Below are positions 6,439 through 48,936 of a stretch of DNA of 64,000 bases, piece after piece. The notes below the pieces were generated by a model. It was not told the origin of the DNA, did not search any database, and saw only the letters and a program-made list of their open reading frames with translations. Source of the DNA: an uncultured Bifidobacterium sp. (GTDB lineage Bacteria; Actinomycetota; Acidimicrobiia; Acidimicrobiales; Ilumatobacteraceae); the NCBI GenBank assembly GCA_964477795.1, contig CAYZFZ010000004.1, positions 1,013-65,012 of the forward strand, written 5' to 3'. Each line of letters starts with the position of its first letter. The first letter of the stretch is position 1. The position numbers and the translations under genes were made by a program.

Positions 6439-6559
6439 GCTGAGTGTGTCCGACCTCCGGCCGGTTGGGCGTCGAACAGGTTGGCGAGGGCAACACCGGC
6501 GGCGATGGCGAACACCCGCGCTCTGCGACGTGCGGCGCCTCCCGCGGCGGGTTCGTCGG

Positions 6560-7816: not shown

Positions 7817-7833
7817 TCCTTGAATATCTTAAA

Positions 7834-7848
7834 GCAACTTGTGGTTGC
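7834..7848. promoter_or_regulatory. Inverted repeat in the 35-bp divergent intergenic region (candidate TetR operator)
   Basis: GCAAC-TTGTG-GTTGC in an AT-rich spacer between 7816 and 7852. Confidence 0.3.
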
Positions 7849-7851
7849 ATT

Positions 7852-8496
7852 ATGATGAGAGACATGGTGACCCGTCAACCCTTGACTCCAGCTGTCGACC
7901 CGCACCGGCGCCGTCGCCCGGGCGGGCGTTCGGCCAACGTCCGCGCCGCAGTGCAACGGGCAACGATCGAGTTGCTGGAACAGGTCGGCTATCACGCCCT
8001 GCAGTTGACCGACGTTGCCGAGCGGGCCGGCGTCAACAAGTCGACCGTCTACCGCCGCTGGCCCGACAAGGCTCGACTCGTCGCCGACGTCATGGCCGAC
8101 TTCGCCGACGAACAGGTCCCCGTCCCGGACACGGGCACGCTGCACGACGATCTCGTGGAGCTGATCACCGGGATGGCCGCGATCCTCGACCAGCCCGCAA
8201 CTCGCGCGACGCTGCAGGCCAACGTTCCGTTCGCCGGGACGGACGGCGAGTTGGACGTGGCGCGTCAGCGGTTCTGGGCCCGACAGTTCGCCGACAGCGC
8301 CGTCATCGTGCAGCGTGCCATCGCCCGCGCCGAGGTCGACCCGTCGACCGACCCGCGACTCGTCCTCGACATGGTCAGCGGACCCGTGTACTTCCGGCGG
8401 CTCGTCACCAACGAACCGGTCACATCCGACTACGTGGCCCGCCTCGCCTGTGCCGTCGTCGCCACCTGCACCCGAGGGGGTATGTCAGTTGACTGA
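7852..8496 (+). CDS. TetR-family transcriptional regulator
   Basis: In-frame tail of ORF 7522..8496. HTH ATIELLEQVGYHALQLTDVAERAGVNKSTVYRRWPDK. ATG at 7852 (alternatives 7855 and 7864). Confidence 0.85.
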   Translation: MMRDMVTRQPLTPAVDPHRRRRPGGRSANVRAAVQRATIELLEQVGYHALQLTDVAERAGVNKSTVYRRWPDKARLVADVMADFADEQVPVPDTGTLHDDLVELITGMAAILDQPATRATLQANVPFAGTDGELDVARQRFWARQFADSAVIVQRAIARAEVDPSTDPRLVLDMVSGPVYFRRLVTNEPVTSDYVARLACAVVATCTRGGMSVD

Positions 8497-8539
8497 CAAC
8501 CGAGGCGCAGAAGCTCGATAGATGCGAGCCGTGGTGCAG

Positions 8540-10054
8540 TCACCCGCAGGTGGTGTTCGGCGGCGGTAGGCGACCCTCGGCGAAGAACTCGTCGACCTGG
8601 TCGTCGACGCACGGGTATCCGACTCCGTACGAGGTGTGGCCTGGACCGTTGTGGACGAGCAGCGTGGAATGTCCCAGTCTCGACACCAGGTCGCGTGCGC
8701 CTGCGAGCGGGGTGGCGAAGTCACCGGTGGACGAGACGACGAGGATCGGGATCGTCGTCGTGCTGGATGGTGTCGGCGTCGGTTCCGCGGAGGGCGGGTA
8801 GCCGTGGCAGCGCGGGACCGATCCCGGGTACCACCGAGCGAATGTCGGTGAGGTGGCCGCGAGCCGTTCGGCGATCCGTCGGTAGTCGTCGACCGTGGGG
8901 CGGTCGGCGTTGTCCGCACACCAGATCAGGTCGATGGCGTCGATGGCTCCGCTCGGATCAGGTGTCTGGTTCTGGTTCCACCAGTAGGACAGGCGGGCCA
9001 GTGGGAGCCCGTCGAATGTCTCGGCGGCCCGGATGGCCGCGTTGAGGTCGGGCCACGTGTTGGGGTCGTAGAACGCCGACAACACGGCGTTGATCGCGTA
9101 CTGCGCGGACAGGGCGGACAGTCCTGCGCGTGTCGGAATGGGGGTTCGTTCGGCGCGCTCGATGATGTGGCTGGCGGCGGTTCTGATGTCGTCGGGGCAC
9201 ACGGCGCCAGCCGTGCGGGGGCAGACCTCGTTGAACTCGTCGGCAAGGTGCTCGAACTCGACCGCTTGGCGTTCGAAGATGGTGGCGATGTCAGCGTCGG
9301 GGTCTTCGGGCCCGTCGAGGACCATGGCTCGAACATGGTCGGGGAACATCGCGGCGTAGGTCCACCCCAACCGGGCGCCGTAGCTGAAGCCGAGGTAGTT
9401 GATCTGCTCCTCGCCAAGCGCGAGGCGGAGCCGGTCGAGGTCGCGGGCGACGTTGACCGTGCCCAGGAACGGGCCGACATCGGTGGCCAGGCAGGCCGCC
9501 GCGGATCGTTCGGCGTCGGCGAGCCATTCGTCCAGATCGGCAGGGTCGGCCGGGGCCAGGGGACCTGCGAACGCTTCGTTCATTGCCTCACTGTCGATGC
9601 AGCTCACGGGGTGCGACCGTCCAACTCCCCGAGGGTCGAAACCGACGATGTCGAAACCGGTCGGGAACCTCCCCGACCGATCACGAACGAAGTCCACCCC
9701 AGACGCACCCGGCCCGCCGGGGTTGACGATCACGGTGCCCCGCCGCGGCCCGTCGGCCGGCTCGCGATAGACGAACAAGTCGATGCTCGGCCCTCGTGGG
9801 TCGTCGTAGTCGATCGGCACGGTCAGCGTCGCGCATTGCCCCCGATCGAGAGTCGGCTCCGCGCAGCCGGTCCACTCGAGACCACCGCTCTCCGGCGACG
9901 TCACGTTGGTCATCGACGTGCTCGGCATGCCGGCGGTCGAGGCGGTGGCGAGCGTCGCGTCGGCGGACCGTGCTGGACCGTCGCAACCCGCCGCAAGGTT
10001 CCCGACCGCGACGGCGATGGCGAGCGCACGGGCGGGTCGTGGGGCCATGGTCAT
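8540..10054 (-). CDS. Secreted lipoprotein, alpha/beta hydrolase of the tripeptidyl-aminopeptidase (TAP) type
   Basis: An internal start gives MTMAPRPARALAIAVAVGNLAAGC (lipobox). Family segments include NPGGPGASG, GFDPRGVG, the nucleophile GFSYGA and a TAP-like C-terminus. ATGA overlap with the upstream gene. The track ORF (to 10399) is over-extended. Confidence 0.8.
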   Translation of the reverse strand: MTMAPRPARALAIAVAVGNLAAGCDGPARSADATLATASTAGMPSTSMTNVTSPESGGLEWTGCAEPTLDRGQCATLTVPIDYDDPRGPSIDLFVYREPADGPRRGTVIVNPGGPGASGVDFVRDRSGRFPTGFDIVGFDPRGVGRSHPVSCIDSEAMNEAFAGPLAPADPADLDEWLADAERSAAACLATDVGPFLGTVNVARDLDRLRLALGEEQINYLGFSYGARLGWTYAAMFPDHVRAMVLDGPEDPDADIATIFERQAVEFEHLADEFNEVCPRTAGAVCPDDIRTAASHIIERAERTPIPTRAGLSALSAQYAINAVLSAFYDPNTWPDLNAAIRAAETFDGLPLARLSYWWNQNQTPDPSGAIDAIDLIWCADNADRPTVDDYRRIAERLAATSPTFARWYPGSVPRCHGYPPSAEPTPTPSSTTTIPILVVSSTGDFATPLAGARDLVSRLGHSTLLVHNGPGHTSYGVGYPCVDDQVDEFFAEGRLPPPNTTCG

Positions 10055-10704
10055 TCCGTCCCGAGCCCGCGCTCGCTTCGCGGACCACCGCGAATCGTTC
10101 GCCACGCCGCCGCGACGGTGACCACGATCACTCCGGCACCAGGGATGATCCACGGCGGGACGAGCACCGAGGTAGCAGCAGCGCCGTAGGCGAGCCCGTT
10201 GCCGATGATCCTGCTGCGTCGGCAGGTCAGTACGACCGCCAAGGACGCGGCCACCGCGAGCCAGGGCGCAGCATTGGCGAGTGAGTGGTCGGCGATGTCG
10301 GGCACCGAACTGGTCGGCGTCTTGGCATGCCCGGCCGCGACCAGATCGTCGACAACGCGGAGGTTGCCGACCATGACCAGCACCGTCGTCGCCAACCACA
10401 TCAGGACAGCCACCAGCACCGCCGGTGAGCGCGCCACACGTGGTTCAGCTCGGGCCAACAACGTGACCACAACGACGGCCATGAACGGCGCCGAGGCGCC
10501 GGTGAGATGCTCGGCAGCGTGGCCACCCACGTCGTATCGACGGCCGAGCACCAGGCGTTGCGCGACCACAGCGGCGACGAGCACGAACGCGACCGGCGCC
10601 CAGCGATGCACCACGCGCAGGGCCGCGGTCCTCCCTGACGCGGGTGGACTCGACGCGCGATCGTGTCGAGTGCGCTCGGGCGTGCACGGTTCGGTGCGGC
10701 TCAT
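10051..10704 (-). CDS. Integral membrane protein (about 5 TM), function unknown
   Basis: ATG at 10704 preceded by GGGGGA. Several hydrophobic helices. Its stop overlaps the start of the peptidase gene. Confidence 0.6.
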   Translation of the reverse strand: MSRTEPCTPERTRHDRASSPPASGRTAALRVVHRWAPVAFVLVAAVVAQRLVLGRRYDVGGHAAEHLTGASAPFMAVVVVTLLARAEPRVARSPAVLVAVLMWLATTVLVMVGNLRVVDDLVAAGHAKTPTSSVPDIADHSLANAAPWLAVAASLAVVLTCRRSRIIGNGLAYGAAATSVLVPPWIIPGAGVIVVTVAAAWRTIRGGPRSERGLGTE

Positions 10705-10882
10705 CGCAGTCCCCCAGTCCTCGACCTGCCGTGGCAACCTCGTGGCTCCCGGCGATCTTCTTGTCGCGGCGACCAGCTCGTTCGGTTCGGCCGCACCCGA
10801 GACCCCCTGAAGACCGGGCCCTCCGCAGATCTGTCCGGAGCGCTCGTGAACCGCTGATGGCGCCTGGCGCGACAATCCTCGT

Positions 10883-11419
10883 GTGCCCAGCCGGTTGACC
10901 GACTGCGACGACCTCGAGCTGGTGTCGTTGATCGCCGACGAGCACCGCGACGCGCTCGCAGAGCTCTATGGGCGTCATGCCGCGTGGTTGGTGGCACGCT
11001 TGCGTCATCGGTGTGCAGACGATGGGGTCGTCGCCGAAGCACTCCAGGACACCTTCGTCGCGGTGTGGCGAGGGGCCGGTCGCTTCGACGCACGTGGGCC
11101 TGTCGGTGCATGGCTGTGGGGCATCGCGATCCGACGACTGATCGGGGTGCTGCGCAAGCAACGCCCGGCTGCGGTCGACCCCGAGACGCGTGACCGTCTG
11201 CTCGTCAGCGCGGAGGATCTCGTGCTCAGCGGGACGGAACACGGCGATCTCGCAGGTGCGCTCCGTGCACTGTCGCCCGAGCTCCGGGCGGTGGTGCAGG
11301 CGACAGTGCTGGACGGGTTGACCACCCGCGAGGCGGCCGACCTGCTCGGCATTCCAACCGGCACGGTGAAGACCCGCATGATGCGGGCCCGCGCCGAGCT
11401 GAGAGGAGCGTTGGCGTGA
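10883..11419 (+). CDS. ECF-type RNA polymerase sigma factor
   Basis: 178 aa. Region 2 (DTFVAVWRGAGRF) and region 4 HTH (LTTREAADLLGIPTGTVKTRMMRAR). Confidence 0.9.
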   Translation: MPSRLTDCDDLELVSLIADEHRDALAELYGRHAAWLVARLRHRCADDGVVAEALQDTFVAVWRGAGRFDARGPVGAWLWGIAIRRLIGVLRKQRPAAVDPETRDRLLVSAEDLVLSGTEHGDLAGALRALSPELRAVVQATVLDGLTTREAADLLGIPTGTVKTRMMRARAELRGALA

Positions 11420-11447
11420 TCCGTCGACACGAGGATGGAGGAGGTTT

Positions 11448-12278
11448 GTGATGGGGTGGCATCTCGACCACACCGCTGCAGAGGCATACGTGACGCGGTC
11501 TACGAACGGTGCCGTGACGGCGTCGATCGAGGCGCACCTGGTGTCGTGCTCGTCGTGCCAGGCGCTCGTGGCCACCATGGAGGAGCCGGCCATGCTGCAG
11601 CTGGTCGCCGATGTGTGGGCGAAGGTCGACGACGTGCTGGATCGTCGAAGGACTCCCGCGATCGAGCGCGCCCTCCGTAGGGTCGGCTGCACCGAGACGA
11701 CCGCGCGGATCATCGCGGTGAGCGCCCGTGCCCGCTGGACGTACCTGGCGGCGGTCACTGTGAGCGTCGCGATGGCCTTCGTGGCGGGGAGGTCCGGCAA
11801 CGATCAGGCGTTCGAGGCATTCCTGCTCCTCGCCCCACTTGGGCCGCTCGTGGCCACCGTGGGGGCGTTCAACCGTCGTACCGATCCGCTCCATTCGTTG
11901 ATGAGGTCGGTGCCGATCTCTCCGTGGCGGGTCGCGCTGTTGAGGACGATTGCGTCGGTGGTACCGGCGATCGGGCTCACGGCCGTCGGCGTTCCGATCC
12001 TCTACGACCGCGGGTGGCTCGCCGTCGCGTGGTTGCTGCCGTCCCTGGCGCTGAGCATGTGCGTGCTGGTGCTCGCGACGCGAGTATCGATCGAATCGGC
12101 AACGCTGATCGCCGGTGTCTCGTGGCTCTCGATCCCGCCATGGTCGCGGCTGCGCCAGGTTGATCTGCTCGGCGCGTTCGGCGGTGGGATCCAGATCGGC
12201 TCCCTCGTCGTCGTCGCCGGCATCGCCATCCTGCTCGCGGTGCATCGTCAACGGCTCGACGATCTGGTGATGCCGTGA
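11448..12278 (+). CDS. Anti-sigma factor (zf-HC2) fused to a multi-pass membrane domain
   Basis: The N-terminal HLVSCSSCQ motif directly follows the sigma gene. About 6 predicted TM helices follow. Confidence 0.75.
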   Translation: MMGWHLDHTAAEAYVTRSTNGAVTASIEAHLVSCSSCQALVATMEEPAMLQLVADVWAKVDDVLDRRRTPAIERALRRVGCTETTARIIAVSARARWTYLAAVTVSVAMAFVAGRSGNDQAFEAFLLLAPLGPLVATVGAFNRRTDPLHSLMRSVPISPWRVALLRTIASVVPAIGLTAVGVPILYDRGWLAVAWLLPSLALSMCVLVLATRVSIESATLIAGVSWLSIPPWSRLRQVDLLGAFGGGIQIGSLVVVAGIAILLAVHRQRLDDLVMP

Positions 12279-41388: not shown

Positions 41389-42048
41389 ATGACCAGCGAC
41401 CTCACCCGCTACGGCGCCGGCGCGTACGCGACGGTGTTCGACTACCTGGCGCTGACCGACGAGGTCCGGCCGAGCGACGCGATCGTCTGCTTCGGAAGCC
41501 GCGACCTGCACGTGCCGCATCGTGCGGCCGAGCTGTTCCACCAGGGCGTTGCCCCGCTGGTGCTCACCACGGGTGGGGTGACGCTGTCGGATGATCGCTG
41601 TGAAGCCGACGTGTTCGCCGACGAGCTCGAGCGGCGTGGCGTTCCCCGGCATCGCATCGTCGCCGAGCGTGACTCGGCCCACACCGGCGACAACGTGCGC
41701 CTTGGCATCGCGACGTTGCAGGAACGCCACGGAGCAATCACGTCGGTGATCTCCGTCGCCTGGCCGTTCGCCGCCCGGCGCTGCGTCGCGACGTTCGCGC
41801 GACATCACCCGCGCATGAAGGTGCGCTCGGCGCCGGCGTTCTGGCGAGCTGGCCTGCGCACTCCGTTCACCCGCGTCGCGGCCGGCCGCGCCGTGGACCA
41901 ACTGTCGCGCCTGACGCACTATGCGGAACGCGGCGAGATCATCATCCACGAGACGCCGGCCGCCGTCAGGCGCGCGGCAGCGACGCTGAAGGAACTGCTC
42001 GCGCACTCACCCGCGTCGAGCAGCCGCGCTCCTGCGCTCACCGAGTGA
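41389..42048 (+). CDS. YdcF/DUF218-family protein
   Basis: 219 aa. AIVCFGSRD...LVLTTGG...RIVAERDSAHTGDN fits the DUF218 fold pattern. Confidence 0.7.
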   Translation: MTSDLTRYGAGAYATVFDYLALTDEVRPSDAIVCFGSRDLHVPHRAAELFHQGVAPLVLTTGGVTLSDDRCEADVFADELERRGVPRHRIVAERDSAHTGDNVRLGIATLQERHGAITSVISVAWPFAARRCVATFARHHPRMKVRSAPAFWRAGLRTPFTRVAAGRAVDQLSRLTHYAERGEIIIHETPAAVRRAAATLKELLAHSPASSSRAPALTE

Positions 42049-42874
42049 CGAGCGCGGCCTCGACCGCACGCAGGTGCACGGCGTCGGCGAAGCGGTCGAC
42101 GAGTGGCGGCAGGGCATGGCCCACAGCGCGCTCGATGAGCTGATCGGCGAACCACGCGTTCTTCGCCAGAAGCGGACCGTGCAGGTAGGTGCCGATCACC
42201 GTCCCCGCCACGGCGCCCTCGAGGCGGTCGTCGCCGTTGTTGCCGGCACCGACGAGCACGGTGCCAAGAGGCTGGCAACCTGCGCCGAGCTCGGTGCGCC
42301 CCTGGTGGTTCTCGAACCCGACGAGTCGGGACGCAGGGAGTCGTGCAGCAGCAGGGAGTCGTGCAGCAGCAGGGAGTCGTGCAGCAGCAGTGAGTCGTGC
42401 AGCAGCAGGGAGTGGCGGCGGGGCGTGCATTCCCGCAGCGGTCACCTCGACGACGACGTTGCCCACGAGTCGTGGCCTGTCGCGTCGGGTGGTGACCGCG
42501 TCGAGCAACCCGAGGCCGGGGATCGTGCCGTCCGCCGTGACGTACTCGTGGCCGAGTAGCTGGAAGCCACCGCAGATCCCGAGCACGGTGGTGCCGGCGG
42601 CCGCAGCAGCGGCGAGCGTCTCGCGGTGCCGCAGCAGGTCGGTGCCGCAGGCGCGCTGGTCGCGATCTTGGCCTCCACCGAGGTACACGAGGTCCGGTCG
42701 CGTGGTACCGAACGTGTCGCCGAGGTGCATCGTGGTGAGCTCGAAGGCGATGCCCCTGCGCCGGCACCGCTGGGCGAGCACGAGCACGTTGCCGCGGTCC
42801 GCGTACAGGTTCAGGCGCTCCGGGTACAGCACCGTCGTCCGCATCACCATGCCGGCGCTGTGCACGCTCACCAC
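42038..42874 (-). CDS. gatD: Lipid II isoglutaminyl synthase, glutaminase subunit GatD
   Basis: LYPERLNLYADRGN, catalytic ICGGFQLLG, LVGFENHQGRT and YLHGPLLAKN. Overlaps the murT stop. The start may be 42874/42871 (GTG) or 42850/42844 (ATG). Confidence 0.9.
   Translation of the reverse strand: MVSVHSAGMVMRTTVLYPERLNLYADRGNVLVLAQRCRRRGIAFELTTMHLGDTFGTTRPDLVYLGGGQDRDQRACGTDLLRHRETLAAAAAAGTTVLGICGGFQLLGHEYVTADGTIPGLGLLDAVTTRRDRPRLVGNVVVEVTAAGMHAPPPLPAAARLTAAARLPAAARLPAAARLPASRLVGFENHQGRTELGAGCQPLGTVLVGAGNNGDDRLEGAVAGTVIGTYLHGPLLAKNAWFADQLIERAVGHALPPLVDRFADAVHLRAVEAALVTR
42336..42415 (-). repeat. In-frame 18-bp tandem repeat (4 full copies plus a partial) inside gatD
   Basis: Forward unit GGGAGTCGTGCAGCAGCA at 42336, 42354 and 42372, variant GTGAGTCGTGCAGCAGCA at 42390, and partial GGGAGTGG at 42408. 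It encodes PLPAAARLTAAARLPAAARLPAAARLPA. Confidence 0.9.
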
Positions 42875-44343
42875 CAGTACCGCGCAGCGTGTCCTTGCTC
42901 AGCGACGGTCTCACGTACGTCGAGCATCGCGGAGTAGTTGGCCACCGTCACCACCGGCCCGTCGGCCCGTTCGAGCGCACGTTGCAGGGGCGCGGCGATG
43001 CCGTCGACCACCTCGATCATCGTGGCGTCGATGCCCGCGTAGTCGAGCCGAAGTGCCGCCTCAGCCGCGCGCGAGCCGCCGCATGTGGCGCGTCCGACGT
43101 GCGGTGCGAGCCGCTCGACGTCGCTGTCCCAGATCCACGAGACGTCGCGCCCGTCGAGATCGCGATCGTTGAGCACGAACAGCAGGTCGAGCGGTCCCGG
43201 CTCGCTGCCGAGCATGGTGATCACCTCGTCGAAGCCGCATGGGTTCTTGGCCAGCACGAGCGTGGCCGTCTGCCCGCCGATCTGCAGTTGCTCGCTACGC
43301 CCGAATGCGCCGGTGCAGCCGGTGAGCCCCGCCACGATCGATCCGAACGAGTAGCCGAGCGCGAGTGCGGCCCCTGCGGCGGCGGTGGCGTTGGCCACGT
43401 TGAAGCGGCCGGGCACCGACAGCTGCACGCGCTCGGCGACGGAGGTGCCGGTCTCGGTGTCGCGCACGGTGAGCGTGAACGACGCGCCGCGGAGACCGTG
43501 CACCGAGACGTCGCTGCCCTCGACCACCGGAACCGGCGGCCGGTGATCCCCACAGTTGGGGCACGACCAGCTGCCGAGGTGGCCGACGTGAGCGCCCCGG
43601 TAGCCCAACACCCCGCCGCAGTGCAGGCAGTCGGGCACGTCTGTGCTGCCGACGGGAGCCTCGCGGTCGTGGTCGGCGAGCCCGACGTGCACGATGTTCG
43701 GGTGGGTCGAGGCCAGCTGGCACACGCGGGGGTCGTCGGCGTTCACCACCAGCACGGTCGACGGTGGCAGCCCTTCGACGCACGCGCGCCAGCGAGCCGC
43801 CACCCGATCGATCTCGCCCATGCGGTCGAGCTGGTCGCGGAACAGGTTGCCGAGCACGATGACTCGCGGGGCCAGCGGGCCGACCATGTGGTCGAGCCAC
43901 AGCTCGTCGGCCTCGAACACACCGACATCGGCGCGCAGGGTGCCGCGGTGAGAGCGCCCGATCAGCTCGGCGCACACCCCGGGTGGCATGTTGGCGCCCA
44001 GGTGGTTCACCACCGGATTGTGGCCCGCGGCGCGCGCGATCTCGGCGAGCAGATTCGTGGTGGTGGTCTTGCCGTTGGTGGCCGACACGAGCGTGCACCC
44101 GCCGGGAAGCCGGCCCGCGAGGGTGGCCAGTGCGTGCGGCGCAGATCCCATCAGCGCACGCCCGGCGCGACTCGGGTCGATGCGCGAGTCGGTGTGACGA
44201 TCGAGGCTGCGCAGCGCGCGTGCGGCAGCCACCGTAAACTCGAATCGCCGCCCAGGCTCGCTCCCCAGTGCGGGCGAGCGGATCGCCCGATCCAGCAGCC
44301 TGGCACCGAGGCGGGCGAGCGGGGCGCGCACGGCTACCCCCAT
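42868..44343 (-). CDS. murT: Lipid II isoglutaminyl synthase, Mur-ligase-like subunit MurT
   Basis: P-loop SATNGKTTTT. Cys4 ribbon CLHCGG...CPNCG. Mur-ligase central domain and DUF1727-like C-terminus. ATG at 44343. The track ORF is over-extended to 44946. Confidence 0.9.
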   Translation of the reverse strand: MGVAVRAPLARLGARLLDRAIRSPALGSEPGRRFEFTVAAARALRSLDRHTDSRIDPSRAGRALMGSAPHALATLAGRLPGGCTLVSATNGKTTTTNLLAEIARAAGHNPVVNHLGANMPPGVCAELIGRSHRGTLRADVGVFEADELWLDHMVGPLAPRVIVLGNLFRDQLDRMGEIDRVAARWRACVEGLPPSTVLVVNADDPRVCQLASTHPNIVHVGLADHDREAPVGSTDVPDCLHCGGVLGYRGAHVGHLGSWSCPNCGDHRPPVPVVEGSDVSVHGLRGASFTLTVRDTETGTSVAERVQLSVPGRFNVANATAAAGAALALGYSFGSIVAGLTGCTGAFGRSEQLQIGGQTATLVLAKNPCGFDEVITMLGSEPGPLDLLFVLNDRDLDGRDVSWIWDSDVERLAPHVGRATCGGSRAAEAALRLDYAGIDATMIEVVDGIAAPLQRALERADGPVVTVANYSAMLDVRETVAEQGHAARYWW

Positions 44344-45116
44344 CCGTACCCGAACGATCGGCGCGCGGCGTGGTCGTAGCGCGCGGGTACGTTGCCGAAT
44401 CCCAGCAGCCGCCGGCGCTCGCCGTCCAGCTCGTCGGCGTCGCGCTGGCGCAGGCTGCCCGGGAAGTCCCAGTGCGGCTGCACCCAGCGGCGGGCGAACA
44501 GCACGTGGAGCGCTCGCCTCGGCCGTGCCGTCGTGTTCGCGCTCCCGGCGTGCACGCACGTGGCGTCGAACACCACAGCATCGCCCGGCTCGAGGGAGAC
44601 GTGGCGGGCTCCTCCCTCCATCGCCGCCGGCTCCGTTCCCTGGAAGGCGTCGCGGTGGCTGCCGGGCACCACCCGGGTGGCCCCGTTGGCCTTGTTGAAC
44701 TGGTTGAGCGCGACGACCGCGTGGAGGTAGAGGGTGACGCCCGGCGTGGGCACCGTGTGGTCGCGGTGCAGCGGCTGCCCCTCGCCTCCCGGGATCATCG
44801 ACTGGCCGTTGAAGCCGGCGAGCACGGAGTCGTCGCCCAGCACGGTGGCGGCGAGCTCGGTGAGCGTGCCAGGGCGGCACAGGTCGAGAAAGACCGGGTG
44901 CTTCGCCGGCAACATGTACGCGACGCGATAGGCGGGGGTGAGCCACTGGCGAGCCGCGGCGATGTCGTCCTCTGCCGCGAAGACCTCGTCGAGCGCATCC
45001 ACGCAGCGGGCCACCGCGTCGGCCGCGAGCACCGACGGCACCACGACGAACCCGTGCTGTTCGATGGCGCGCGAGCGCGCATCGTCCACCTGCGCCGCCG
45101 TGCGCGCGTGGTTCAC
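44334..45116 (-). CDS. Phytanoyl-CoA dioxygenase (PhyH) family Fe(II)/2-oxoglutarate oxygenase
   Basis: GTG at 45116 overlaps the upstream stop (GTGA). It has QPLHRDH (H-x-D) and a distal CVHAGSAN histidine, plus the typical PhyH N-terminus (IEQHGFVVVPSVL). Confidence 0.8.
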   Translation of the reverse strand: MNHARTAAQVDDARSRAIEQHGFVVVPSVLAADAVARCVDALDEVFAAEDDIAAARQWLTPAYRVAYMLPAKHPVFLDLCRPGTLTELAATVLGDDSVLAGFNGQSMIPGGEGQPLHRDHTVPTPGVTLYLHAVVALNQFNKANGATRVVPGSHRDAFQGTEPAAMEGGARHVSLEPGDAVVFDATCVHAGSANTTARPRRALHVLFARRWVQPHWDFPGSLRQRDADELDGERRRLLGFGNVPARYDHAARRSFGYGWG

Positions 45117-46225
45117 GGCACCCACCGACCGACGTGCGGCCACTGCTTCATCCGTCGCCGCGCGAGCGCGATGTCGATCGCTCGCCGCAGCCGCTCGCTC
45201 GCCTTGGTCCGCGCCAGCTCGTCGCGGTAGCCCTTCCATGCTGTTCCCAGCCCCACCACGTTGACGCTCGCGATCTGGCGGAGCGTGGGCGGCGGCAGCG
45301 ACGGGAAGCTGCCCTCCACGCCGGCGACGCGGATGGCGACCCCGCTGCGGATGCACTTCTCGCACTGCCCGCAGTTGTAGAGCCCGTCGCGGTTCTCGAA
45401 GCAGACGCGCAGGTGGTGGCGTGCTGCCGGCTCGCCGGCGATGGCGCGAACCTTCTCGAACCGTGTGGCGTCGGCGCCGTCGTGCACGATCTGCACCTGC
45501 TCGGTGCTCCACAGCGGGTCGAGCAGTGGATGCGAGCCGAGCGGGTAGAGGACCGCATAGGTGGTGGTGGCCGGCACGAACACCTTCGAGAAGTGTGGCG
45601 CCAGCAGCAACGCGACCGTGGCGAGCGCCGAGCCGTGGTAGTCGTCCCAGCTGATGCCGAACGAGGTGCTGTACGCGACGAGGTTGCACTCCACCTCGAT
45701 CAGCGGCAACCCGAGCATGCCGGCGGCAGCCTGCAGCCGGGCGGAGACCTGCTGGTTGAGCGGATCGTGCTGATCGTCGAGGAGGTCGAAGCCGTGCACG
45801 AAGATGAGCGCGTCGAGCTCGTCGCGACGACGCAGCACGCTGTGGAACGAGTCGATCCCGCCGGTGAAGAAGCAGGCCGTCCCTCGCCGGTTGGGGGTGC
45901 GAGGTGGCTCGTCGGCCGGTTCCTCGCGGCGGGTGGCCACCAGCGGCACCCGGCTGTACTTCGAATGGCCGGGATGCAGCGCACGGTCCCAGGTGACCAG
46001 GATGTCGGCGATGAGCTCGGCGTTGTCGACGAGGCGCGCGGACACCGGCCCGTCCACCACCAGCGGCTCGCCGGCGGCCATCGCGGGCAGCCAGCCGGCT
46101 GCGACGGCGGCGTCGGCGGTGCCGGCGGTGCGCACCTCGGGCGGGAACCGGAACGTCGCATGGGTCTTACCGTCGAAGCGAATGGTCACGTCGTCGCCGT
46201 CGCGGGCAGGCGGATGCGCGATCAC
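45113..46225 (-). CDS. PP-loop ATP-pyrophosphatase superfamily protein, QueC-like, with an extra approx. 125-aa N-terminal domain
   Basis: GGAGGGGAGG lies 6 nt upstream of the GTG at 46225, which forms a GTGA overlap. FFTGGIDS resembles the SGGxDS PP-loop. The C-terminal CGQCEKCIRSG resembles the QueC zinc motif CGxCxxCxxR. Confidence 0.55.
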   Translation of the reverse strand: MIAHPPARDGDDVTIRFDGKTHATFRFPPEVRTAGTADAAVAAGWLPAMAAGEPLVVDGPVSARLVDNAELIADILVTWDRALHPGHSKYSRVPLVATRREEPADEPPRTPNRRGTACFFTGGIDSFHSVLRRRDELDALIFVHGFDLLDDQHDPLNQQVSARLQAAAGMLGLPLIEVECNLVAYSTSFGISWDDYHGSALATVALLLAPHFSKVFVPATTTYAVLYPLGSHPLLDPLWSTEQVQIVHDGADATRFEKVRAIAGEPAARHHLRVCFENRDGLYNCGQCEKCIRSGVAIRVAGVEGSFPSLPPPTLRQIASVNVVGLGTAWKGYRDELARTKASERLRRAIDIALARRRMKQWPHVGRWVP

Positions 46226-47040
46226 CGTGACCTCCCCTCCCACGCATCGAGCGCGGCTCTGGCGCACGCGCCGATGTCGGCGGAGGTGCGTGCCGGGTCG
46301 TCCTGACCGTCGGTGAGGAAGCAGGCGATCAGGTCGCCGCTCGGGGCGTGGATGACACCGACGTCGTTGACCACGCCGGCAAGGCTGCCGGTCTTGTGCG
46401 AAACGATGATCTCGTCGGGCATGCGCAGCAAGATCCGCGAGTTGAACAAGCTCGACCGCAGCGCGGGTCGCAACGGGGCCAGCGCCGGCAGCTGGAAGAC
46501 CGCGGCGAGCACAGTGGCGCAGTCGGTAGCGGTGGTGACGTTCGCGCGACCGTGAGCGCTCAGCATCTCGTCGGCGAATCCGACGCGGAGCTGAGTGTCG
46601 GGGCAGCCGAGCGACGTGGACACCGCGTTCACGCGTTCCGCCCCGACGAGTTGCACCAGGTGCTCGGCGATGCGGTTGTCGCTGGTGGACAGCGCGAGTC
46701 GCGTCAGCTCTCCGATGCTGAAGCGGTGGTGCGGCAAGAGCGAGTCGAGCACGGACGGACCGATGCTGGACGGCAGGTCGGCCACGGCCACTCTCGCGTC
46801 GAGGTCGAACTGCGCGTCGGCTGCGAGGAGCTGGGCTGCAACCGAGACGAACACCTTGTGCACGCTGGCGCCCGGCCGAGAGACGTCGGCCGCGTGCCCC
46901 ACCGAGCACCTGCGTCCCACGAGCAGGACGCTGCGCCCGGGGTCGTGCCCGACGAAGCGATCGACGGCGGTGCGCCAGCATTCGTGCAACGCTTCGACGC
47001 GGCCGGTGCCGTTGCTCGACCGTCCCGTCACCGCCCTCAC
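46222..47040 (-). CDS. Class A beta-lactamase-related serine hydrolase
   Basis: SVHK (SxxK), STSDN (SDN) and HKTGS (KTG) occur in the right order and spacing. I recognised neither a signal peptide nor an obvious ExxLN omega-loop motif. Confidence 0.75.
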   Translation of the reverse strand: MRAVTGRSSNGTGRVEALHECWRTAVDRFVGHDPGRSVLLVGRRCSVGHAADVSRPGASVHKVFVSVAAQLLAADAQFDLDARVAVADLPSSIGPSVLDSLLPHHRFSIGELTRLALSTSDNRIAEHLVQLVGAERVNAVSTSLGCPDTQLRVGFADEMLSAHGRANVTTATDCATVLAAVFQLPALAPLRPALRSSLFNSRILLRMPDEIIVSHKTGSLAGVVNDVGVIHAPSGDLIACFLTDGQDDPARTSADIGACARAALDAWEGRSR

Positions 47041-47086
47041 CTCGGGAGACGCTACTCGCCGTGCGTCGCGGGCTGAACCTCCGCCC

Positions 47087-47104
47087 GCGGTTCACGTGAA
47101 CCGC
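47087..47104. promoter_or_regulatory. Perfect 18-bp palindrome between divergent operons
   Basis: GCGGTTCAC-GTGAACCGC. A second near-palindrome, ATGTTACTAGTAGCAT (14 of 16), lies at 47148..47163. Confidence 0.45.
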
Positions 47105-47189
47105 CGCCGAGATGCTCGGGGAATCGGGAACAAACCAATGCACTCGCATGTTACTAGTAGCATCGGAATCAAGAGCAAAGGTGATCGTG

Positions 47190-48059
47190 ATGAGTGAACG
47201 GAAACTGGAAGGCGTGTACTCGGGGGACGGGTTCCACTGGGTGGGCGACGGGTTCTACGTGACGCAGGTGTTGCCCGGCCGGGCCGGGTTGGAGGCGTTG
47301 GCGGATCCGTTCCTGTTGATGGACTACCACCCGCCGCGTGACTATGCGCCGACCGATCGTCCCCGCGGGGTCGGGGTGCATCCGCATCGTGGGTTCGAGA
47401 CGGTGACGCTGGCGTTCGAGGGTGCGGTCGCGCACCACGACTCGACTGGTGCGGGTGGCGTGATCCGCCCGGGTGATGTGCAGTGGATGACCGCCGCGCG
47501 CGGGATCCTGCACAAGGAGTACCACGAGGCCGACTGGGCCCGGGCCGGCGGCCTGTTCCACATGATGCAGCTGTGGGTGAACCTGCCGGGCCGCCACAAG
47601 ATGGACGACCCCGGCTATCAACCCCTCGAGGCAGCGCACATGGGCGACGTCGCGTTGCCGGGCGGTGGTCGGGTGCGGTTGATCGCCGGTGAGCTCGACG
47701 GTGTGCGAGGCCCGGCGCGCACGCATACGCCGATCGAGCTGTGGGACCTGACGCTGACACCGGGGGAGCGGGCCGAGCTGCACACTCCGGACGGGCACAC
47801 GACGATGGTCTTCGTGATCGACGGGCGGCTCGAGGCTGCCGGCGGCACGATCGAGCGGCAACAGCTGGGGATGTTCTCCCGCGACGGCGACCTCACCGTC
47901 CTCACTGCGGGAGATGCGGGGGCGCGGGCGATCCTGCTCGGTGGCGAGCCGATCGGGGAGCCGGTCGTGTTCTACGGTCCGTTCGTGATGAACACCGACG
48001 ACGAGATCGCCCAGGCCATCGCCGACTTCAATGCCGGCACGTTCGGGCACCTCGTATGA
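47190..48059 (+). CDS. Pirin-family protein
   Basis: GVGVHPHRGFETVTLAFEG...HDS.G..G.I.PGDVQWMTA..GI.H.E is the pirin N-terminal cupin signature. Confidence 0.9.
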   Translation: MSERKLEGVYSGDGFHWVGDGFYVTQVLPGRAGLEALADPFLLMDYHPPRDYAPTDRPRGVGVHPHRGFETVTLAFEGAVAHHDSTGAGGVIRPGDVQWMTAARGILHKEYHEADWARAGGLFHMMQLWVNLPGRHKMDDPGYQPLEAAHMGDVALPGGGRVRLIAGELDGVRGPARTHTPIELWDLTLTPGERAELHTPDGHTTMVFVIDGRLEAAGGTIERQQLGMFSRDGDLTVLTAGDAGARAILLGGEPIGEPVVFYGPFVMNTDDEIAQAIADFNAGTFGHLV

Positions 48060-48936
48060 ACCGCACCCCGCGCCCCGCGGCAAGGTGCCTGCGGTGATCA
48101 TCGAGCCGAGGTCGCGCCCCGTGGGCACGCTCACAGTCGGTCGCTTGCTGCCGTTCCGTCTGCGGCGCTCGGTGGGGCCGTTCGTGTTCTGCGACGTGAT
48201 GGGGCCGGTCGACTTCGAGCCCGGGGCCGGGCTCGACGTCGACGCCCACCCGCACATCGGGTTGTCGACGCTGACCTATCTGCTCGCCGGGCGGGCGCGG
48301 CATCGCGACTCACTCGGCGTTGTCCGCACCATCGAGGCGGGCGAGGTGAACTGGATGACCGCCGGGGCCGGGGTGTGCCACACCGAACGCTCCCTTGCCG
48401 AGGACCGCCGGAGTGCGGCCCGGTTGGCCGGGGTCCAGTTCTGGGTCGCGCTCCCCGACGGGGCCGAGGACGGCCCGGCGAGCTTCCAGCACGCCGGCTC
48501 GCAGGATGCACCGACGCTCGACGTCGATGGCAGCCGCGTGCGGTTGCTGGCCGGTACCGGGTGGGGGGAACGATCACCGGTGACCGGTTCGTCGCCCCTC
48601 GTGCTCGGCGATGTCGCCCTGACCGGCGGCCCTGTCCCGCTCGACGGTGAGCATGGCGAGTGGGCGGTGCTGGCCCTCGACGGTGCGCCGACCGTCGCCG
48701 GGCACCGTCTGGCGCCGCATCATCTGCACGTCATCGAGCCGGGCGAGCCGCTCGTCGTCGCCGGGTCCGGACGGGTTGTCGTCCTCGGTGGCCAGCCGCT
48801 CGGTCGGCGGCACATGTGGTGGAACTTCGTGCACTCCGACCCTGATCGCATCGAGGACGCCAAGCAACGCTGGTTGCGCCAGGAGTTCCCACGCGTTCCC
48901 GACGACCACGATCCCTACGTCCCGCTTCCCACCTGA
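48031..48936 (+). CDS. Pirin-family protein (YhhW-like), second copy
   Basis: DAHPHIGLSTLTYLLAG...HRDSLG....I..GEVNWMTAG.GV.H.E. The start is uncertain: 48031 overlaps the previous gene by 29 nt, and a GTG near 48094 is an alternative. Confidence 0.8.
   Translation: MPARSGTSYEPHPAPRGKVPAVIIEPRSRPVGTLTVGRLLPFRLRRSVGPFVFCDVMGPVDFEPGAGLDVDAHPHIGLSTLTYLLAGRARHRDSLGVVRTIEAGEVNWMTAGAGVCHTERSLAEDRRSAARLAGVQFWVALPDGAEDGPASFQHAGSQDAPTLDVDGSRVRLLAGTGWGERSPVTGSSPLVLGDVALTGGPVPLDGEHGEWAVLALDGAPTVAGHRLAPHHLHVIEPGEPLVVAGSGRVVVLGGQPLGRRHMWWNFVHSDPDRIEDAKQRWLRQEFPRVPDDHDPYVPLPT

What the first reader, a model, noticed from the sequence alone, without database searches (positions are those of the whole stretch)
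42038..47040. murT-gatD embedded in a five-gene, translationally coupled operon with a beta-lactamase-like hydrolase, a QueC-like PP-loop enzyme and a PhyH dioxygenase
Seen: five minus-strand genes joined by stop-start overlaps.
- The beta-lactamase-like gene and the PP-loop gene share a GTGA overlap at 46222..46225, preceded by GGAGGGGAGG.
- The PP-loop gene and PhyH share a GTGA overlap at 45113..45116.
- PhyH and MurT overlap by 10 nt.
- MurT and GatD overlap at 42868..42874.

Established: MurT/GatD amidate D-isoglutamate of lipid II and usually occur as a two-gene unit. PP-loop enzymes (QueC, and the asparagine-synthase-type AsnB1/LtsA) activate carboxylates by adenylation for amidation. 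AsnB1/LtsA amidate meso-DAP in peptidoglycan. PhyH enzymes are Fe(II)/2OG hydroxylases. Class A beta-lactamase folds are related to DD-peptidases. Chemotaxonomy records hydroxylated Glu or DAP in the murein of some Actinomycetota, and I know of no assigned hydroxylase.

Inference: the operon may encode a second, undescribed stem-peptide tailoring pathway (hydroxylation plus a further amidation or trimming) co-expressed with iGlu amidation.
Basis: partly seen in the sequence, partly recalled or inferred. Interest (0 to 1): 0.75.

Follow-up and report, generated by a model that had tools for sequence, protein, structure and literature searches.

The report
MurT-GatD operon with unknown tailoring enzymes
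In one lineage of aquatic actinobacteria (Acidimicrobiia), the two genes that amidate the cell-wall building block lipid II sit in one tightly packed operon with three uncharacterised cytoplasmic enzymes, which points to an undescribed cell-envelope precursor modification whose chemistry is still unknown.

Summary
Five minus-strand genes (42038-47040) are joined by stop/start overlaps, and the same order and overlaps recur in six other genomes of one Acidimicrobiia lineage that includes an Ilumatobacteraceae MAG.

- **MurT/GatD** look canonical. Catalytic motifs are intact, and the nearest relatives outside the lineage are plain two-gene units.
- **The "PP-loop gene" (G4)** has no Pfam or NCBIfam match, but a confident AlphaFold2 model (pLDDT 91) has a QueC/QatC-like PP-loop fold with a Cys4 motif.
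- **G4-PhyH plus a convergent DUF218 gene** is an older module. It occurs without murT-gatD in at least 10 other Acidimicrobiia genomes.
- **G4's wider family** is large (about 8,800 cluster representatives). It lies mostly in surface-polysaccharide loci.
- **Natural fusions** join G4 to a beta-lactamase-like domain, to DUF218, to pyruvyl transferases and to a FemAB-like domain. So Bla, G4 and DUF218 are functionally linked.

An envelope-precursor tailoring module co-expressed with iGlu amidation is likely. Peptidoglycan as its substrate, and hydroxylation plus amidation as its chemistry, remain inference.

The parts
46222..47040 (-). Cytoplasmic class-A beta-lactamase / PBP-A-like serine hydrolase ('Bla-like'), 272 aa. 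The public gene call starts at 47031.
   Evidence: Pfam Beta-lactamase2 at 102.9 bits and Peptidase_S13 at 27.9 bits. NCBIfam bla_class_A scores 59.9 against a cut-off of 200. Best PDB sequence matches are 4ewf, 4hes, LRA-5 and Tll2115. S59-x-x-K62 and K216-T-G are invariant in 7 orthologues, but the Ser of SDN is Gly in 3 of them. There is no signal peptide or TM segment. A natural G4+Beta-lactamase2 fusion exists, P0369, whose Bla part is 43% identical.
45113..46225 (-). G4: QueC-like PP-loop ATP pyrophosphatase with an N-terminal domain and a C-terminal Cys4 motif, 370 aa. Uncharacterised family.
   Evidence: No Pfam or NCBIfam hit. AF2 model has pLDDT 91 and pTM 0.90. Foldseek matches: QatC 9y01_B (E 7.5e-6), GMP synthase, QueC 3bl5 (TM 0.66 on the target), TtuA, MnmA and ArgG. 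TGGIDS at residues 121-126 and C275/C285/C288/C291 are conserved (C275 invariant, the other three in at least 90% of sequences). 7 of 23 family members give weak QueC Pfam hits and 10 of 23 weak DUF6395 hits.
44334..45116 (-). PhyH-family Fe(II)/2-oxoglutarate oxygenase, 260 aa.
   Evidence: Pfam PhyH at 95.1 bits. H117-x-D119, H189 and R200/R201 are conserved in 11 orthologues. Best PDB matches are DhiD, AsqJ, EasH and KanJ. The orthologue group is confined to Acidimicrobiia. A start giving a 4-nt overlap with G4 is available in 12 of 13 loci.
42868..44343 (-). MurT, the ligase subunit of lipid II isoglutaminyl synthase, 491 aa.
   Evidence: Pfam Mur_ligase_M plus MurT_C at 97.8 bits. Full-length match to S. 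pneumoniae MurT 6fqb at 156 bits. Motifs present: TNGKTT at 89-94, two CxxC pairs at 239-264, and DGRDVSWIWD at 397-406. About 45-50% identical to stand-alone MurT proteins.
42038..42874 (-). GatD, the glutaminase subunit, 278 aa (alternative start at 42871).
   Evidence: Pfam GATase_3 at 128.5 bits. Matches S. aureus GatD 5n9m/6gs2 at about 133 bits, in two pieces. GICGGF at 99-104 and YLHGP at 230-234 are present.
42333..42413 (-). In-frame 18-nt x 4.5 tandem repeat inside gatD (AAARL[T/P] x4), within a 36-aa loop insert.
   Evidence: TRF score 155. The insert splits the match to S. aureus GatD. This loop varies among orthologues, and L007 has a different insert.
41389..42048 (+). Cytoplasmic YdcF-like DUF218 protein, 219 aa. 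Convergent with gatD and overlapping its stop by 11 nt.
   Evidence: Pfam DUF218 at 54.9 bits. A convergent DUF218 gene follows the last operon gene in 14 of 15 PhyH-type genome loci, whether that gene is gatD or PhyH. A natural G4+DUF218 fusion exists, P0377.
46231..46240 (-). Shine-Dalgarno-like GGAGGGGAGG, 5 nt upstream of the G4 start and inside the end of the Bla-like gene.
   Evidence: Read directly.
47041..47111 (.). 71-bp divergent intergenic region between the operon and two pirin genes. This is the only non-coding gap and the presumed promoter region.
   Evidence: No sigma-70 consensus was found and no Rfam family.

Best explanation
This is a lineage-specific operon fusion.

**Shown by homology.** The 3' half is an ordinary lipid II isoglutaminyl synthase. 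MurT uses ATP to activate the alpha-carboxyl of D-isoglutamate, and GatD supplies ammonia from glutamine.

**Shown by comparative genomics and fusions.** The 5' half, together with the convergent DUF218 gene, is an older Acidimicrobiia module of soluble cytoplasmic enzymes. murT-gatD was inserted between PhyH and DUF218, and the Bla-like gene was added in front.

**Inferred.** The module tailors the same class of substrate, a nucleotide- or lipid-linked cell-wall precursor, most likely the peptidoglycan stem peptide.
- G4, a QueC-like PP-loop enzyme, adenylates a free carboxylate and passes it to ammonia or an amine.
- PhyH hydroxylates a neighbouring carbon.
- The beta-lactamase-like serine hydrolase either trims the D-Ala-D-Ala end or acts as the amide-cleaving partner of G4, much as GatD serves MurT.

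Translational coupling would then deliver all the tailoring activities in fixed proportion with iGlu amidation.
For: - Gene identities and intact catalytic motifs.
- PP-loop/QueC fold of G4.
- Five-gene order in seven genomes, with junction overlaps kept in the five intact related loci; monophyletic in the PhyH tree.
- Two separate additions flank an older core while the convergent DUF218 gene is kept at the end.
- Natural fusions G4+Beta-lactamase2, G4+DUF218 and G4+FemAB-like GNAT. The Bla part of the fusion is 43% identical to the window protein.
- The G4-Bla fusion lies next to an N-acetylmuramoyl-L-alanine amidase domain gene. The G4-FemAB-like fusion lies next to a VanY D-Ala-D-Ala carboxypeptidase.
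- DUF218 proteins SanA and ElyC control the balance of peptidoglycan and ECA synthesis (PMC12176290).
- All six proteins lack signal or TM segments, so they must act on cytoplasmic precursors.
- MurT's closest outside relatives are ordinary two-gene units, so it is an orthologue rather than a divergent paralogue.
Against: - G4-PhyH/DUF218 works without an adjacent murT-gatD or Bla in at least 10 genomes. Iamia keeps only PhyH and DUF218, behind a TetR-like gene.
- Across 80 species-level loci, G4 neighbours are mostly polysaccharide enzymes: GT4 in 33, pyruvyl transferase in 17, ABC exporter in 18. VanY, Amidase_2 and FemAB-like neighbours occur once each.
- In Corynebacteriales, G4 lies beside WS/DGAT-like and NRPS genes.
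- More distant PhyH relatives sit in glycosyltransferase loci.
- Stop/start overlaps are common in this genome.
- There is no direct evidence on substrate.
- A second murT-gatD elsewhere in the genome cannot be excluded.
Confidence: 0.4

Rival explanations
1. The Bla/G4/PhyH/DUF218 module tailors a different envelope glycopolymer or its lipid-linked precursor, for example by amidating or aminoacylating a uronic or pyruvyl-ketal carboxylate and adding a hydroxyl. murT-gatD joined the operon only for co-regulation of envelope charge, not because the substrate is shared.
For: - G4 relatives are adjacent to GT4 (33 of 80 loci), polysaccharide pyruvyl transferase (17 of 80, mostly directly adjacent), ABC exporters (18 of 80) and Asn-synthase-like genes (6 of 80).
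- Natural fusions G4+PS_pyruv_trans (4 cases) and G4+GT2.
- GT2 genes lie beside both peptide-linked fusion loci.
- More distant PhyH relatives sit in GT2/GT4/GT9 loci.
- One MAG carries both a PhyH-type and a polysaccharide-type G4 (L015 and L026).
Against: - No glycosyltransferase or polysaccharide gene lies near the PhyH-type loci in the window or in the 3-gene genomes.
- In the NJ tree (no support values) the PhyH-linked G4s form their own clade, apart from the polysaccharide-type paralogues.
- The partners gained in this lineage are both peptidoglycan-type: MurT/GatD and a DD-peptidase-fold protein.
Confidence: 0.3
2. The core module is small-molecule metabolism (solute, xenobiotic or secondary-metabolite tailoring), and its position next to murT-gatD is a historical accident kept by vertical inheritance in one clade.
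For: - The closest solved PhyH relatives all act on small molecules: DhiD, AsqJ, EasH, KanJ and ectoine hydroxylase.
- In Iamia the PhyH gene overlaps an upstream TetR-like regulator gene, a typical catabolic or detoxification layout.
- The window neighbourhood is rich in TetR, pirin, MerB and amine oxidase genes.
- The five-gene state probably arose once.
Against: - Order and overlapping junctions are kept down to about 50% protein identity.
- Fusions and neighbours of G4 point repeatedly to envelope enzymes.
- The DUF218 family has links to envelope biogenesis.
Confidence: 0.2
3. The MurT/GatD pair here is a specialised second copy that amidates the product of the upstream enzymes (a non-lipid-II carboxylate), while a housekeeping pair lies elsewhere in the genome.
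For: - Scores are far below the NCBIfam equivalog cut-offs: 176 against 800 for MurT, and 151 against 400/450 for GatD.
- MurT has an N-terminal extension of about 45 aa, and GatD has a loop insert.
Against: - The equivalog models are named for Staphylococcus/Streptococcus-type proteins.
- The extension is shared with stand-alone two-gene units at 50% identity.
- All MurT and GatD motifs are intact.
- There is no second copy in the 64-kb window.
- Every Acidimicrobiia MurT among the top hits whose source contig I could match by length (P0124, P0129, P0130, P0136, P0140) or inspect directly (P0131) maps to the five-gene locus.
Confidence: 0.1

Closest known systems
MurT/GatD lipid II isoglutaminyl synthase (S. 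pneumoniae 6fqb; S. aureus 6gs2)
   Same: Same two-subunit architecture and adjacent genes. The Mur-ligase P-loop, Cys4 ribbon, MurT_C DGxDxSWxWD motif, and the GatD Cys and His motifs are all present.
   Different: Embedded as genes 4 and 5 of a five-gene overlapping operon instead of a two-gene unit. MurT has an N-terminal extension. GatD carries a repeat-bearing 36-aa loop insert. Scores are below the Firmicute-based equivalog cut-offs.
QueC (7-cyano-7-deazaguanine synthase; B. subtilis 3bl5)
   Same: PP-loop nucleotide-binding fold. A C-x9-C-x2-C-x2-C motif in G4 that resembles, from memory, the zinc site of QueC. A carboxylate-adenylating mechanism is expected.
   Different: No significant PF06508 hit for the window protein. 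G4 has an extra N-terminal domain of about 110 aa and a helical C-terminus. No queuosine-pathway genes are nearby. A published survey of the QueC family does not mention envelope contexts.
QatC of QatABCD and Cap9 of type IV CBASS (QueC-family protein-modifying enzymes)
   Same: QatC is the best structural match over the full length (9y01_B, E 7.5e-6). These enzymes are a precedent for QueC-like enzymes that target an amine on a macromolecule rather than making a nucleoside (PMC13279940).
   Different: TM-score is only 0.39, with 16% identity. No PADLOC hit and no QatA, QatB or QatD neighbours. The genomic contexts are envelope biosynthesis, not defence.
AsnB1/LtsA-type peptidoglycan DAP amidotransferases and WbpS-type sugar amidotransferases (asparagine synthase family)
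   Same: PP-loop adenylation of a wall carboxylate followed by amidation.
   Different: G4 has no Asn_synthase domain and no fused glutaminase domain. Asn-synthase-like genes occur beside G4 as separate genes in 6 of 80 loci.
PBP-A / class-A-like proteins (Tll2115 2j7v; 4ewf; 4hes; LRA-5)
   Same: Beta-lactamase2 fold with SxxK and KTG motifs.
   Different: No signal peptide, so the protein is cytoplasmic. The Ser of the SDN motif is not conserved. Translationally coupled to, and elsewhere fused with, a PP-loop enzyme.
DUF218 proteins SanA, ElyC and YdcF of E. coli
   Same: DUF218 domain. SanA and ElyC influence the balance of peptidoglycan and ECA synthesis and probably are enzymes. YdcF is cytoplasmic (PMC12176290).
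   Different: The window protein is soluble and YdcF-like, not membrane-anchored. It is genomically tied to a PhyH oxygenase and a QueC-like enzyme, and fused to the latter in P0377.

Membership tests
MurT (lipid II isoglutaminyl synthase, ligase subunit) | Mur ligase middle domain with ATP-binding P-loop, plus the MurT_C (DUF1727) domain | tested here: met
   PF08245 at 53.7 bits and PF08353 at 97.8 bits, both above cut-off. TNGKTT at residues 89-94.
MurT (lipid II isoglutaminyl synthase, ligase subunit) | Cys4 ribbon in the middle domain, and the conserved C-terminal DGxDxSWxWD motif holding the Asp that completes GatD's triad (the role of this Asp is from my own knowledge) | tested here: met
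   C239/C242/C261/C264 and D397-G-R-D-V-S-W-I-W-D align to S. pneumoniae MurT 6fqb.
MurT (lipid II isoglutaminyl synthase, ligase subunit) | NCBIfam equivalog score for the whole protein | tested here: not met
   176.1 and 172.5 bits against a cut-off of 800. Two of these four models are named for Staphylococcus. Nearest relatives are annotated lipid II isoglutaminyl synthase at 43-47% identity.
MurT (lipid II isoglutaminyl synthase, ligase subunit) | Amidation of lipid II D-iGlu; single housekeeping copy | not testable with these tools
   Only 64 kb of the genome is available, and it holds no second copy.
GatD (glutaminase subunit) | CobB/CobQ-type GATase domain with catalytic Cys and His, encoded next to murT | tested here: met
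   PF07685 at 128.5 bits. GIC101GGF and YLH232GP. About 133 bits to S. aureus GatD. Equivalog cut-offs are not reached (151 against 400/450).
QueC (PF06508) / PP-loop ATP pyrophosphatases | PP-loop (SGGxDS-type) motif in an adenine-nucleotide alpha-hydrolase fold | tested here: met
   Variant TGGIDS at 121-126; G123, D125 and S126 are invariant and G122 is in at least 90% of 23 homologues. Foldseek matches to QueC, GMP synthase, TtuA, MnmA and ArgG.
QueC (PF06508) / PP-loop ATP pyrophosphatases | C-terminal Cys4 zinc site | tested here: met
   C275-x9-C285-x2-C288-x2-C291, conserved in at least 90% of sequences, C275 in all. Metal binding itself was not tested.
QueC (PF06508) / PP-loop ATP pyrophosphatases | Significant match to the family model, and a queuosine/preQ0 pathway context | tested here: not met
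   No Pfam or NCBIfam hit for the window protein. Only weak QueC hits in 7 of 23 relatives, best E 0.013. No queD, queE or folE within 10 kb on either side.
QatC / QatABCD defence system | QatC model match with QatA, QatB and QatD partners | tested here: not met
   No PADLOC hit. The neighbours are Bla, PhyH, MurT and GatD.
PhyH Fe(II)/2OG oxygenases | PhyH domain with HxD...H iron triad and a 2OG-binding Arg | tested here: met
   PF05721 at 95.1 bits. H117, D119, H189 and R200/201 are conserved in 11 orthologues.
Class A beta-lactamase | Secreted enzyme with SxxK, SDN, E166 and KTG; score above the family cut-off | tested here: not met
   bla_class_A scores 59.9 against a cut-off of 200. No signal peptide. 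The SDN Ser is Gly in 3 of 7 orthologues, and the E166 equivalent is unclear. Only the broader Beta-lactamase2 fold family is met.
AsnB1/LtsA-type DAP amidotransferase | Asparagine synthase domain with an N-terminal glutaminase domain | tested here: not met
   No Asn_synthase hit for G4. One weak hit among 23 relatives.
DUF218 (SanA/ElyC/YdcF) | DUF218 domain; conserved Thr-His-Glu triad | tested here: inconclusive
   The domain is met: PF02698 at 54.9 bits against a cut-off of 27.6. The triad described in PMC12176290 was not mapped residue by residue. The motif SAHTGDN at 96-102 is present.

The most novel reading that the evidence does not exclude
G4 founds a large, undescribed branch of QueC-like enzymes that ligate ammonia, amines or amino acids to carboxylates of envelope glycan precursors.

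In the five-gene lineage of Acidimicrobiia (which includes an Ilumatobacteraceae MAG), a Bla-like/G4 pair would form a second amidotransferase, with a beta-lactamase-fold amidohydrolase as the ammonia- or amine-supplying subunit. This would mirror MurT/GatD. With the PhyH hydroxylase between them, the operon would produce a doubly modified, hydroxylated peptidoglycan stem. One possible product is the hydroxyglutamate that I recall being reported for Ilumatobacter murein; that recollection is unverified.

The same reading would also assign a first biochemical partner to the DUF218 domain.
Probability: 0.15. Interest if true: 0.85.

Novelty: new variant of a known kind. Interest (0 to 1): 0.58.

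Why it matters
**Peptidoglycan tailoring.** MurT/GatD is a validated antibiotic-target pathway and is normally a self-contained gene pair. Here it is welded to three enzymes of unknown substrate, in a bacterial class that is abundant in water and soil but hardly studied biochemically. If the partners act on peptidoglycan precursors, this would reveal new cytoplasmic tailoring chemistry. It could also name a first candidate gene for hydroxylated stem residues, which are known from chemotaxonomy (Hyg is listed as a peptidoglycan variant in PMC11382707). I know of no assigned hydroxylase, and my searches found none.

**An uncharacterised enzyme family.** Independently of the substrate, the work defines a family of about 8,800 cluster representatives. 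It has a QueC-like fold, has no own Pfam or NCBIfam model, and is absent from a recent QueC-family survey.

**Testable fusions.** Natural fusions to pyruvyl transferases, a beta-lactamase-like domain, DUF218 and a FemAB-like domain give testable handles. These apply both to this family and to the enigmatic DUF218 proteins SanA and ElyC.

Tried and rejected
1. **Sequence searches for G4.** Pfam, NCBIfam, PDB and PADLOC gave nothing significant. Only structure prediction identified the fold.
2. **QatABCD-type defence reading.** Rejected: no PADLOC hit and no Qat partners.
3. **G4 as genuine QueC or AsnB1/LtsA.** Rejected on domain content and context.
4. **PhyH as the general hydroxy-Glu hydroxylase.** If it were, Hyg-containing Microbacteriaceae should carry orthologues. 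None appeared; the orthologue group stops at Acidimicrobiia. So at most it is a lineage-specific solution.
5. **Literature check of Ilumatobacter murein.** Five searches and one DOI look-up found no text on its composition. The hydroxyglutamate report is only my recollection and carries no weight in the scores.
6. **Literature on MurT/GatD with a dioxygenase, and on DhiD.** Nothing found.
7. **Promoter, terminator and Rfam scans.** Nothing found.
8. **First all-vs-all ORF clustering.** It was polluted by antisense ORFs typical of high-GC DNA; clusters 1, 3 and 9 were discarded.
9. **Second murT-gatD copy.** I could not test whether 3-gene genomes (Aquihabitans, Iamia) or the window's own genome have murT-gatD elsewhere.

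Full report
**1. Observation**

- Bla-like (46222-47040) to G4 (45113-46225): GTGA overlap at 46225-46222, behind a GGAGGGGAGG Shine-Dalgarno-like run.
- G4 to PhyH (44334-45116): GTGA overlap at 45116-45113.
- PhyH to MurT: the TAG at 44334 lies 10 nt inside MurT, which starts with ATG at 44343.
- MurT to GatD: the TGA at 42868 is overlapped by GatD starts at 42874 or 42871. The latter gives a third GTGA and is the public gene call.

No promoter-like, terminator-like or Rfam element lies inside the unit. The only non-coding gap is the 71-bp divergent region next to two pirin genes.

Overlaps are not remarkable in themselves in this 70% GC genome. Roughly 10 of 22 other same-strand neighbour pairs in the window overlap too.

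**2. What the genes are**

Pfam and NCBIfam and PDB sequence searches give the following.
- **GatD.** GATase_3 at 128.5 bits and about 133 bits to S. aureus GatD. Cys101 and His232 motifs are present.
- **MurT.** Mur_ligase_M plus MurT_C, with a 156-bit full-length match to S. pneumoniae MurT. P-loop, Cys4 ribbon and DGRDVSWIWD are present.
- **PhyH.** 95 bits. H117-x-D119, H189 and R200/201 are conserved in 11 orthologues.
- **Bla-like.** A Beta-lactamase2-fold protein with invariant S59xxK and KTG but a non-conserved SDN serine. Its closest solved relatives are uncharacterised class-A-like proteins and the cyanobacterial PBP-A Tll2115.

None of the six proteins has a signal peptide or membrane segment. 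All must therefore act in the cytoplasm.

**3. The unknown gene (G4)**

G4 has no Pfam, NCBIfam, PDB-sequence or PADLOC match. An AlphaFold2 model built from 23 homologues is confident (pLDDT 91, pTM 0.90).

Foldseek places it among PP-loop ATP pyrophosphatases. The best full-length match is QatC of the QatABCD system (E 7.5e-6). Next come GMP synthase PP-loop domains, QueC (TM 0.66 on the target), TtuA, MnmA and argininosuccinate synthase.

The alignment shows a conserved A-x-F-F-T-G-G-x-D-S-F PP-loop and a C275-x9-C285-x2-C288-x2-C291 motif. From my own knowledge, that motif resembles the QueC zinc site. Seven of 23 relatives give sub-threshold QueC hits and ten give sub-threshold DUF6395 hits.

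It is not QueC proper, because there is no model match and no queuosine context. It is also not an AsnB1/LtsA-type enzyme.

**4. Source and distribution**

The window is identical to a 138-kb contig of an Acidimicrobiia population seen in about 25 assemblies.

A scan of one genome per species with the G4 alignment found at least 567 loci, of which 80 were kept. I mapped the window proteins onto them.

| Arrangement | Loci |
|---|---|
| Full Bla-G4-PhyH-MurT-GatD order | L005, L006, L007, L008, L014, and an Ilumatobacteraceae MAG, L091 |
| Only G4-PhyH with a convergent DUF218 gene | Nine loci (L009 Aquihabitans daechungensis complete genome, L010-L013, L015, L018, L019, L021); L017 is too short to show DUF218 |
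| TetR-like gene, PhyH, convergent DUF218, no G4 | Iamia majanohamensis |

Junction analysis shows that an overlapping start codon is available as follows.
- Bla/G4: 4 nt in 6 of 6 loci.
- G4/PhyH: 4 nt in 12 of 13 loci.
- PhyH/MurT: 4 or 10 nt in 6 of 6 loci.
- MurT/GatD: 4-7 nt in 5 of 6 loci.

The PhyH orthologue group is sharply bounded and confined to Acidimicrobiia; scores fall from 181 to 108 bits. In neighbour-joining trees the PhyH-linked G4s form one clade, and the five-gene loci are monophyletic for PhyH.

The history therefore reads as follows. An old PhyH/DUF218 (+G4) module gained murT-gatD between PhyH and DUF218, and Bla in front. This happened once, in a deep lineage that includes Ilumatobacteraceae. 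The reverse, loss from an ancestral five-gene state, is not excluded.

**5. Is MurT/GatD ordinary?**

The best MurT hits outside the five-gene clade (about 50% identity, same length, same N-terminal extension) are plain two-gene murT-gatD units. Canonical 450-aa MurTs of Solirubrobacterales follow at 43-47% identity.

The low NCBIfam scores probably reflect models built around Firmicute proteins, not divergence of function. There is no second copy in the window. I could not examine the rest of the genome.

**6. What the wider family says**

A profile search of 1.84 billion representatives finds 8,815 G4 relatives, 3,861 of them at E <= 1e-30.

Partners of G4 in the 80 genome loci:
- GT4 glycosyltransferases in 33.
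- Polysaccharide pyruvyl transferases in 17, mostly directly adjacent.
- ABC exporters in 18.
- Asn-synthase-like genes in 6.
- G4 is often present in tandem arrays of up to five copies.
- In Corynebacteriales the neighbours are WS/DGAT-like and NRPS genes.

Natural fusions are the most telling result.
- G4+Beta-lactamase2 (P0369). Its Bla part is 43% identical to the window's Bla-like protein.
- G4+DUF218 (P0377).
- G4+PS_pyruv_trans, in four proteins.
- G4+GT2.
- G4+Acetyltransf_6/FemAB-like (P0435).

The G4-Bla fusion lies beside an N-acetylmuramoyl-L-alanine amidase domain gene, a second G4 and a GT2. The G4-FemAB-like fusion lies beside a VanY D-Ala-D-Ala carboxypeptidase and a GT2. Such peptide-type neighbours are nevertheless rare in the 80-locus sample, at one each.

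DUF218 proteins SanA and ElyC are reported to balance peptidoglycan and ECA synthesis, and probably are enzymes with a Thr-His-Glu triad (PMC12176290).

**7. Mechanism**

*Shown:*
- A conserved, tightly coupled operon.
- An intact MurT/GatD.
- A QueC-fold enzyme, an Fe/2OG oxygenase and a serine hydrolase, all cytoplasmic and with catalytic motifs.
- Fusion-level links among G4, Bla-like and DUF218.

*Inferred:* the module tailors a cytoplasmic or lipid-linked envelope precursor.
- G4 adenylates a carboxylate for transfer to ammonia or an amine.
- PhyH hydroxylates.
- The Bla-like protein either removes D-Ala or cleaves an amide for G4. The second idea comes from the fusion and from the rule that PP-loop amidotransferases pair with a hydrolase of varying fold (established for GuaA, AsnB and NadE).

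I rank the readings as follows:

| Reading | Confidence |
|---|---|
| Peptidoglycan stem peptide is the substrate | 0.4 |
| Another envelope glycopolymer is the substrate | 0.3 |
| Unrelated small-molecule metabolism | 0.2 |
| Specialised MurT/GatD paralogue | 0.1 |

**8. Comparison with known systems and novelty**

MurT/GatD membership is met on every sequence feature that I could test, apart from narrow equivalog cut-offs. G4 works like QueC or QatC but fails membership of both families.

QueC-family enzymes acting on macromolecular amines are a recent precedent (PMC13279940). A 2026 survey of PF06508 does not mention envelope contexts. I found no paper linking MurT/GatD with a dioxygenase.

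The finding is therefore a new variant of a known kind. It also carries an uncharacterised enzyme family.

**9. Caveat on hydroxyglutamate**

threo-3-Hydroxyglutamate is an accepted peptidoglycan variant (PMC11382707). My recollection that Ilumatobacter murein contains hydroxyglutamate could not be verified in the library and is not used as evidence. If true, it would raise the stem-peptide reading considerably.

Noticed in passing
window 42333-42413 (within gatD): An 18-nt x 4.5 perfect-frame tandem repeat encodes AAARL[T/P] x4 inside a 36-aa insert. The insert splits the match to S. aureus GatD. The loop varies among orthologues, and L007 carries an unrelated insert at the same place.
   Followed up: partly
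window 41389-42048 (+); L004/L009, L010-L015, L018-L021, L090: A cytoplasmic DUF218 gene converges on and overlaps the end of the last operon gene, whether that gene is gatD or PhyH. One G4+DUF218 fusion protein exists (P0377).
   Followed up: partly
L090 (Iamia majanohamensis CP116942) 9351-11717: A TetR-like gene overlaps the PhyH start by 4 nt and a convergent DUF218 gene follows. No G4 lies within 10 kb, so PhyH/DUF218 is the most persistent pair.
   Followed up: partly
L087 7411-8067: In a contig carrying a MurT about 47% identical to the window's (P0148), a SAM-methyltransferase gene sits between murT and gatD. This is another departure from the two-gene rule.
   Followed up: no
L050, L069, L056, L055; proteins P0361, P0362, P0367 and others: G4 paralogues form tandem arrays of up to five genes, and many proteins are G4-G4 tandem fusions. 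This suggests hetero-dimeric or multi-specificity use.
   Followed up: no
L040 (Rhodococcus olei) 7056-11149; L069 (Tomitella biformata): In Corynebacteriales, G4 paralogues lie beside WS/DGAT-like acyltransferase (HHxxxDG), NRPS, alpha/beta-hydrolase and AsnB genes rather than polysaccharide genes.
   Followed up: partly
window 47112-48059 and 48031-48936 (+): Two tandem pirin genes, 32% identical to each other and overlapping by 29 nt, diverge from the operon. They are followed by a GNAT-like gene and a 662-aa Dioxygenase_C protein.
   Followed up: no
window 44334-44380 and orthologues: PhyH proteins of five-gene loci share a C-terminal tail (...RYDHxxRRxFGYGWG) that is missing from three-gene loci. 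This tail overlaps the murT start.
   Followed up: no
L091 (Ilumatobacteraceae MAG GCA_041394565.1) 6066-10234: G4 and gatD are split across frames, which looks like indel errors of the assembly. The public gene calls therefore miss gatD there.
   Followed up: partly
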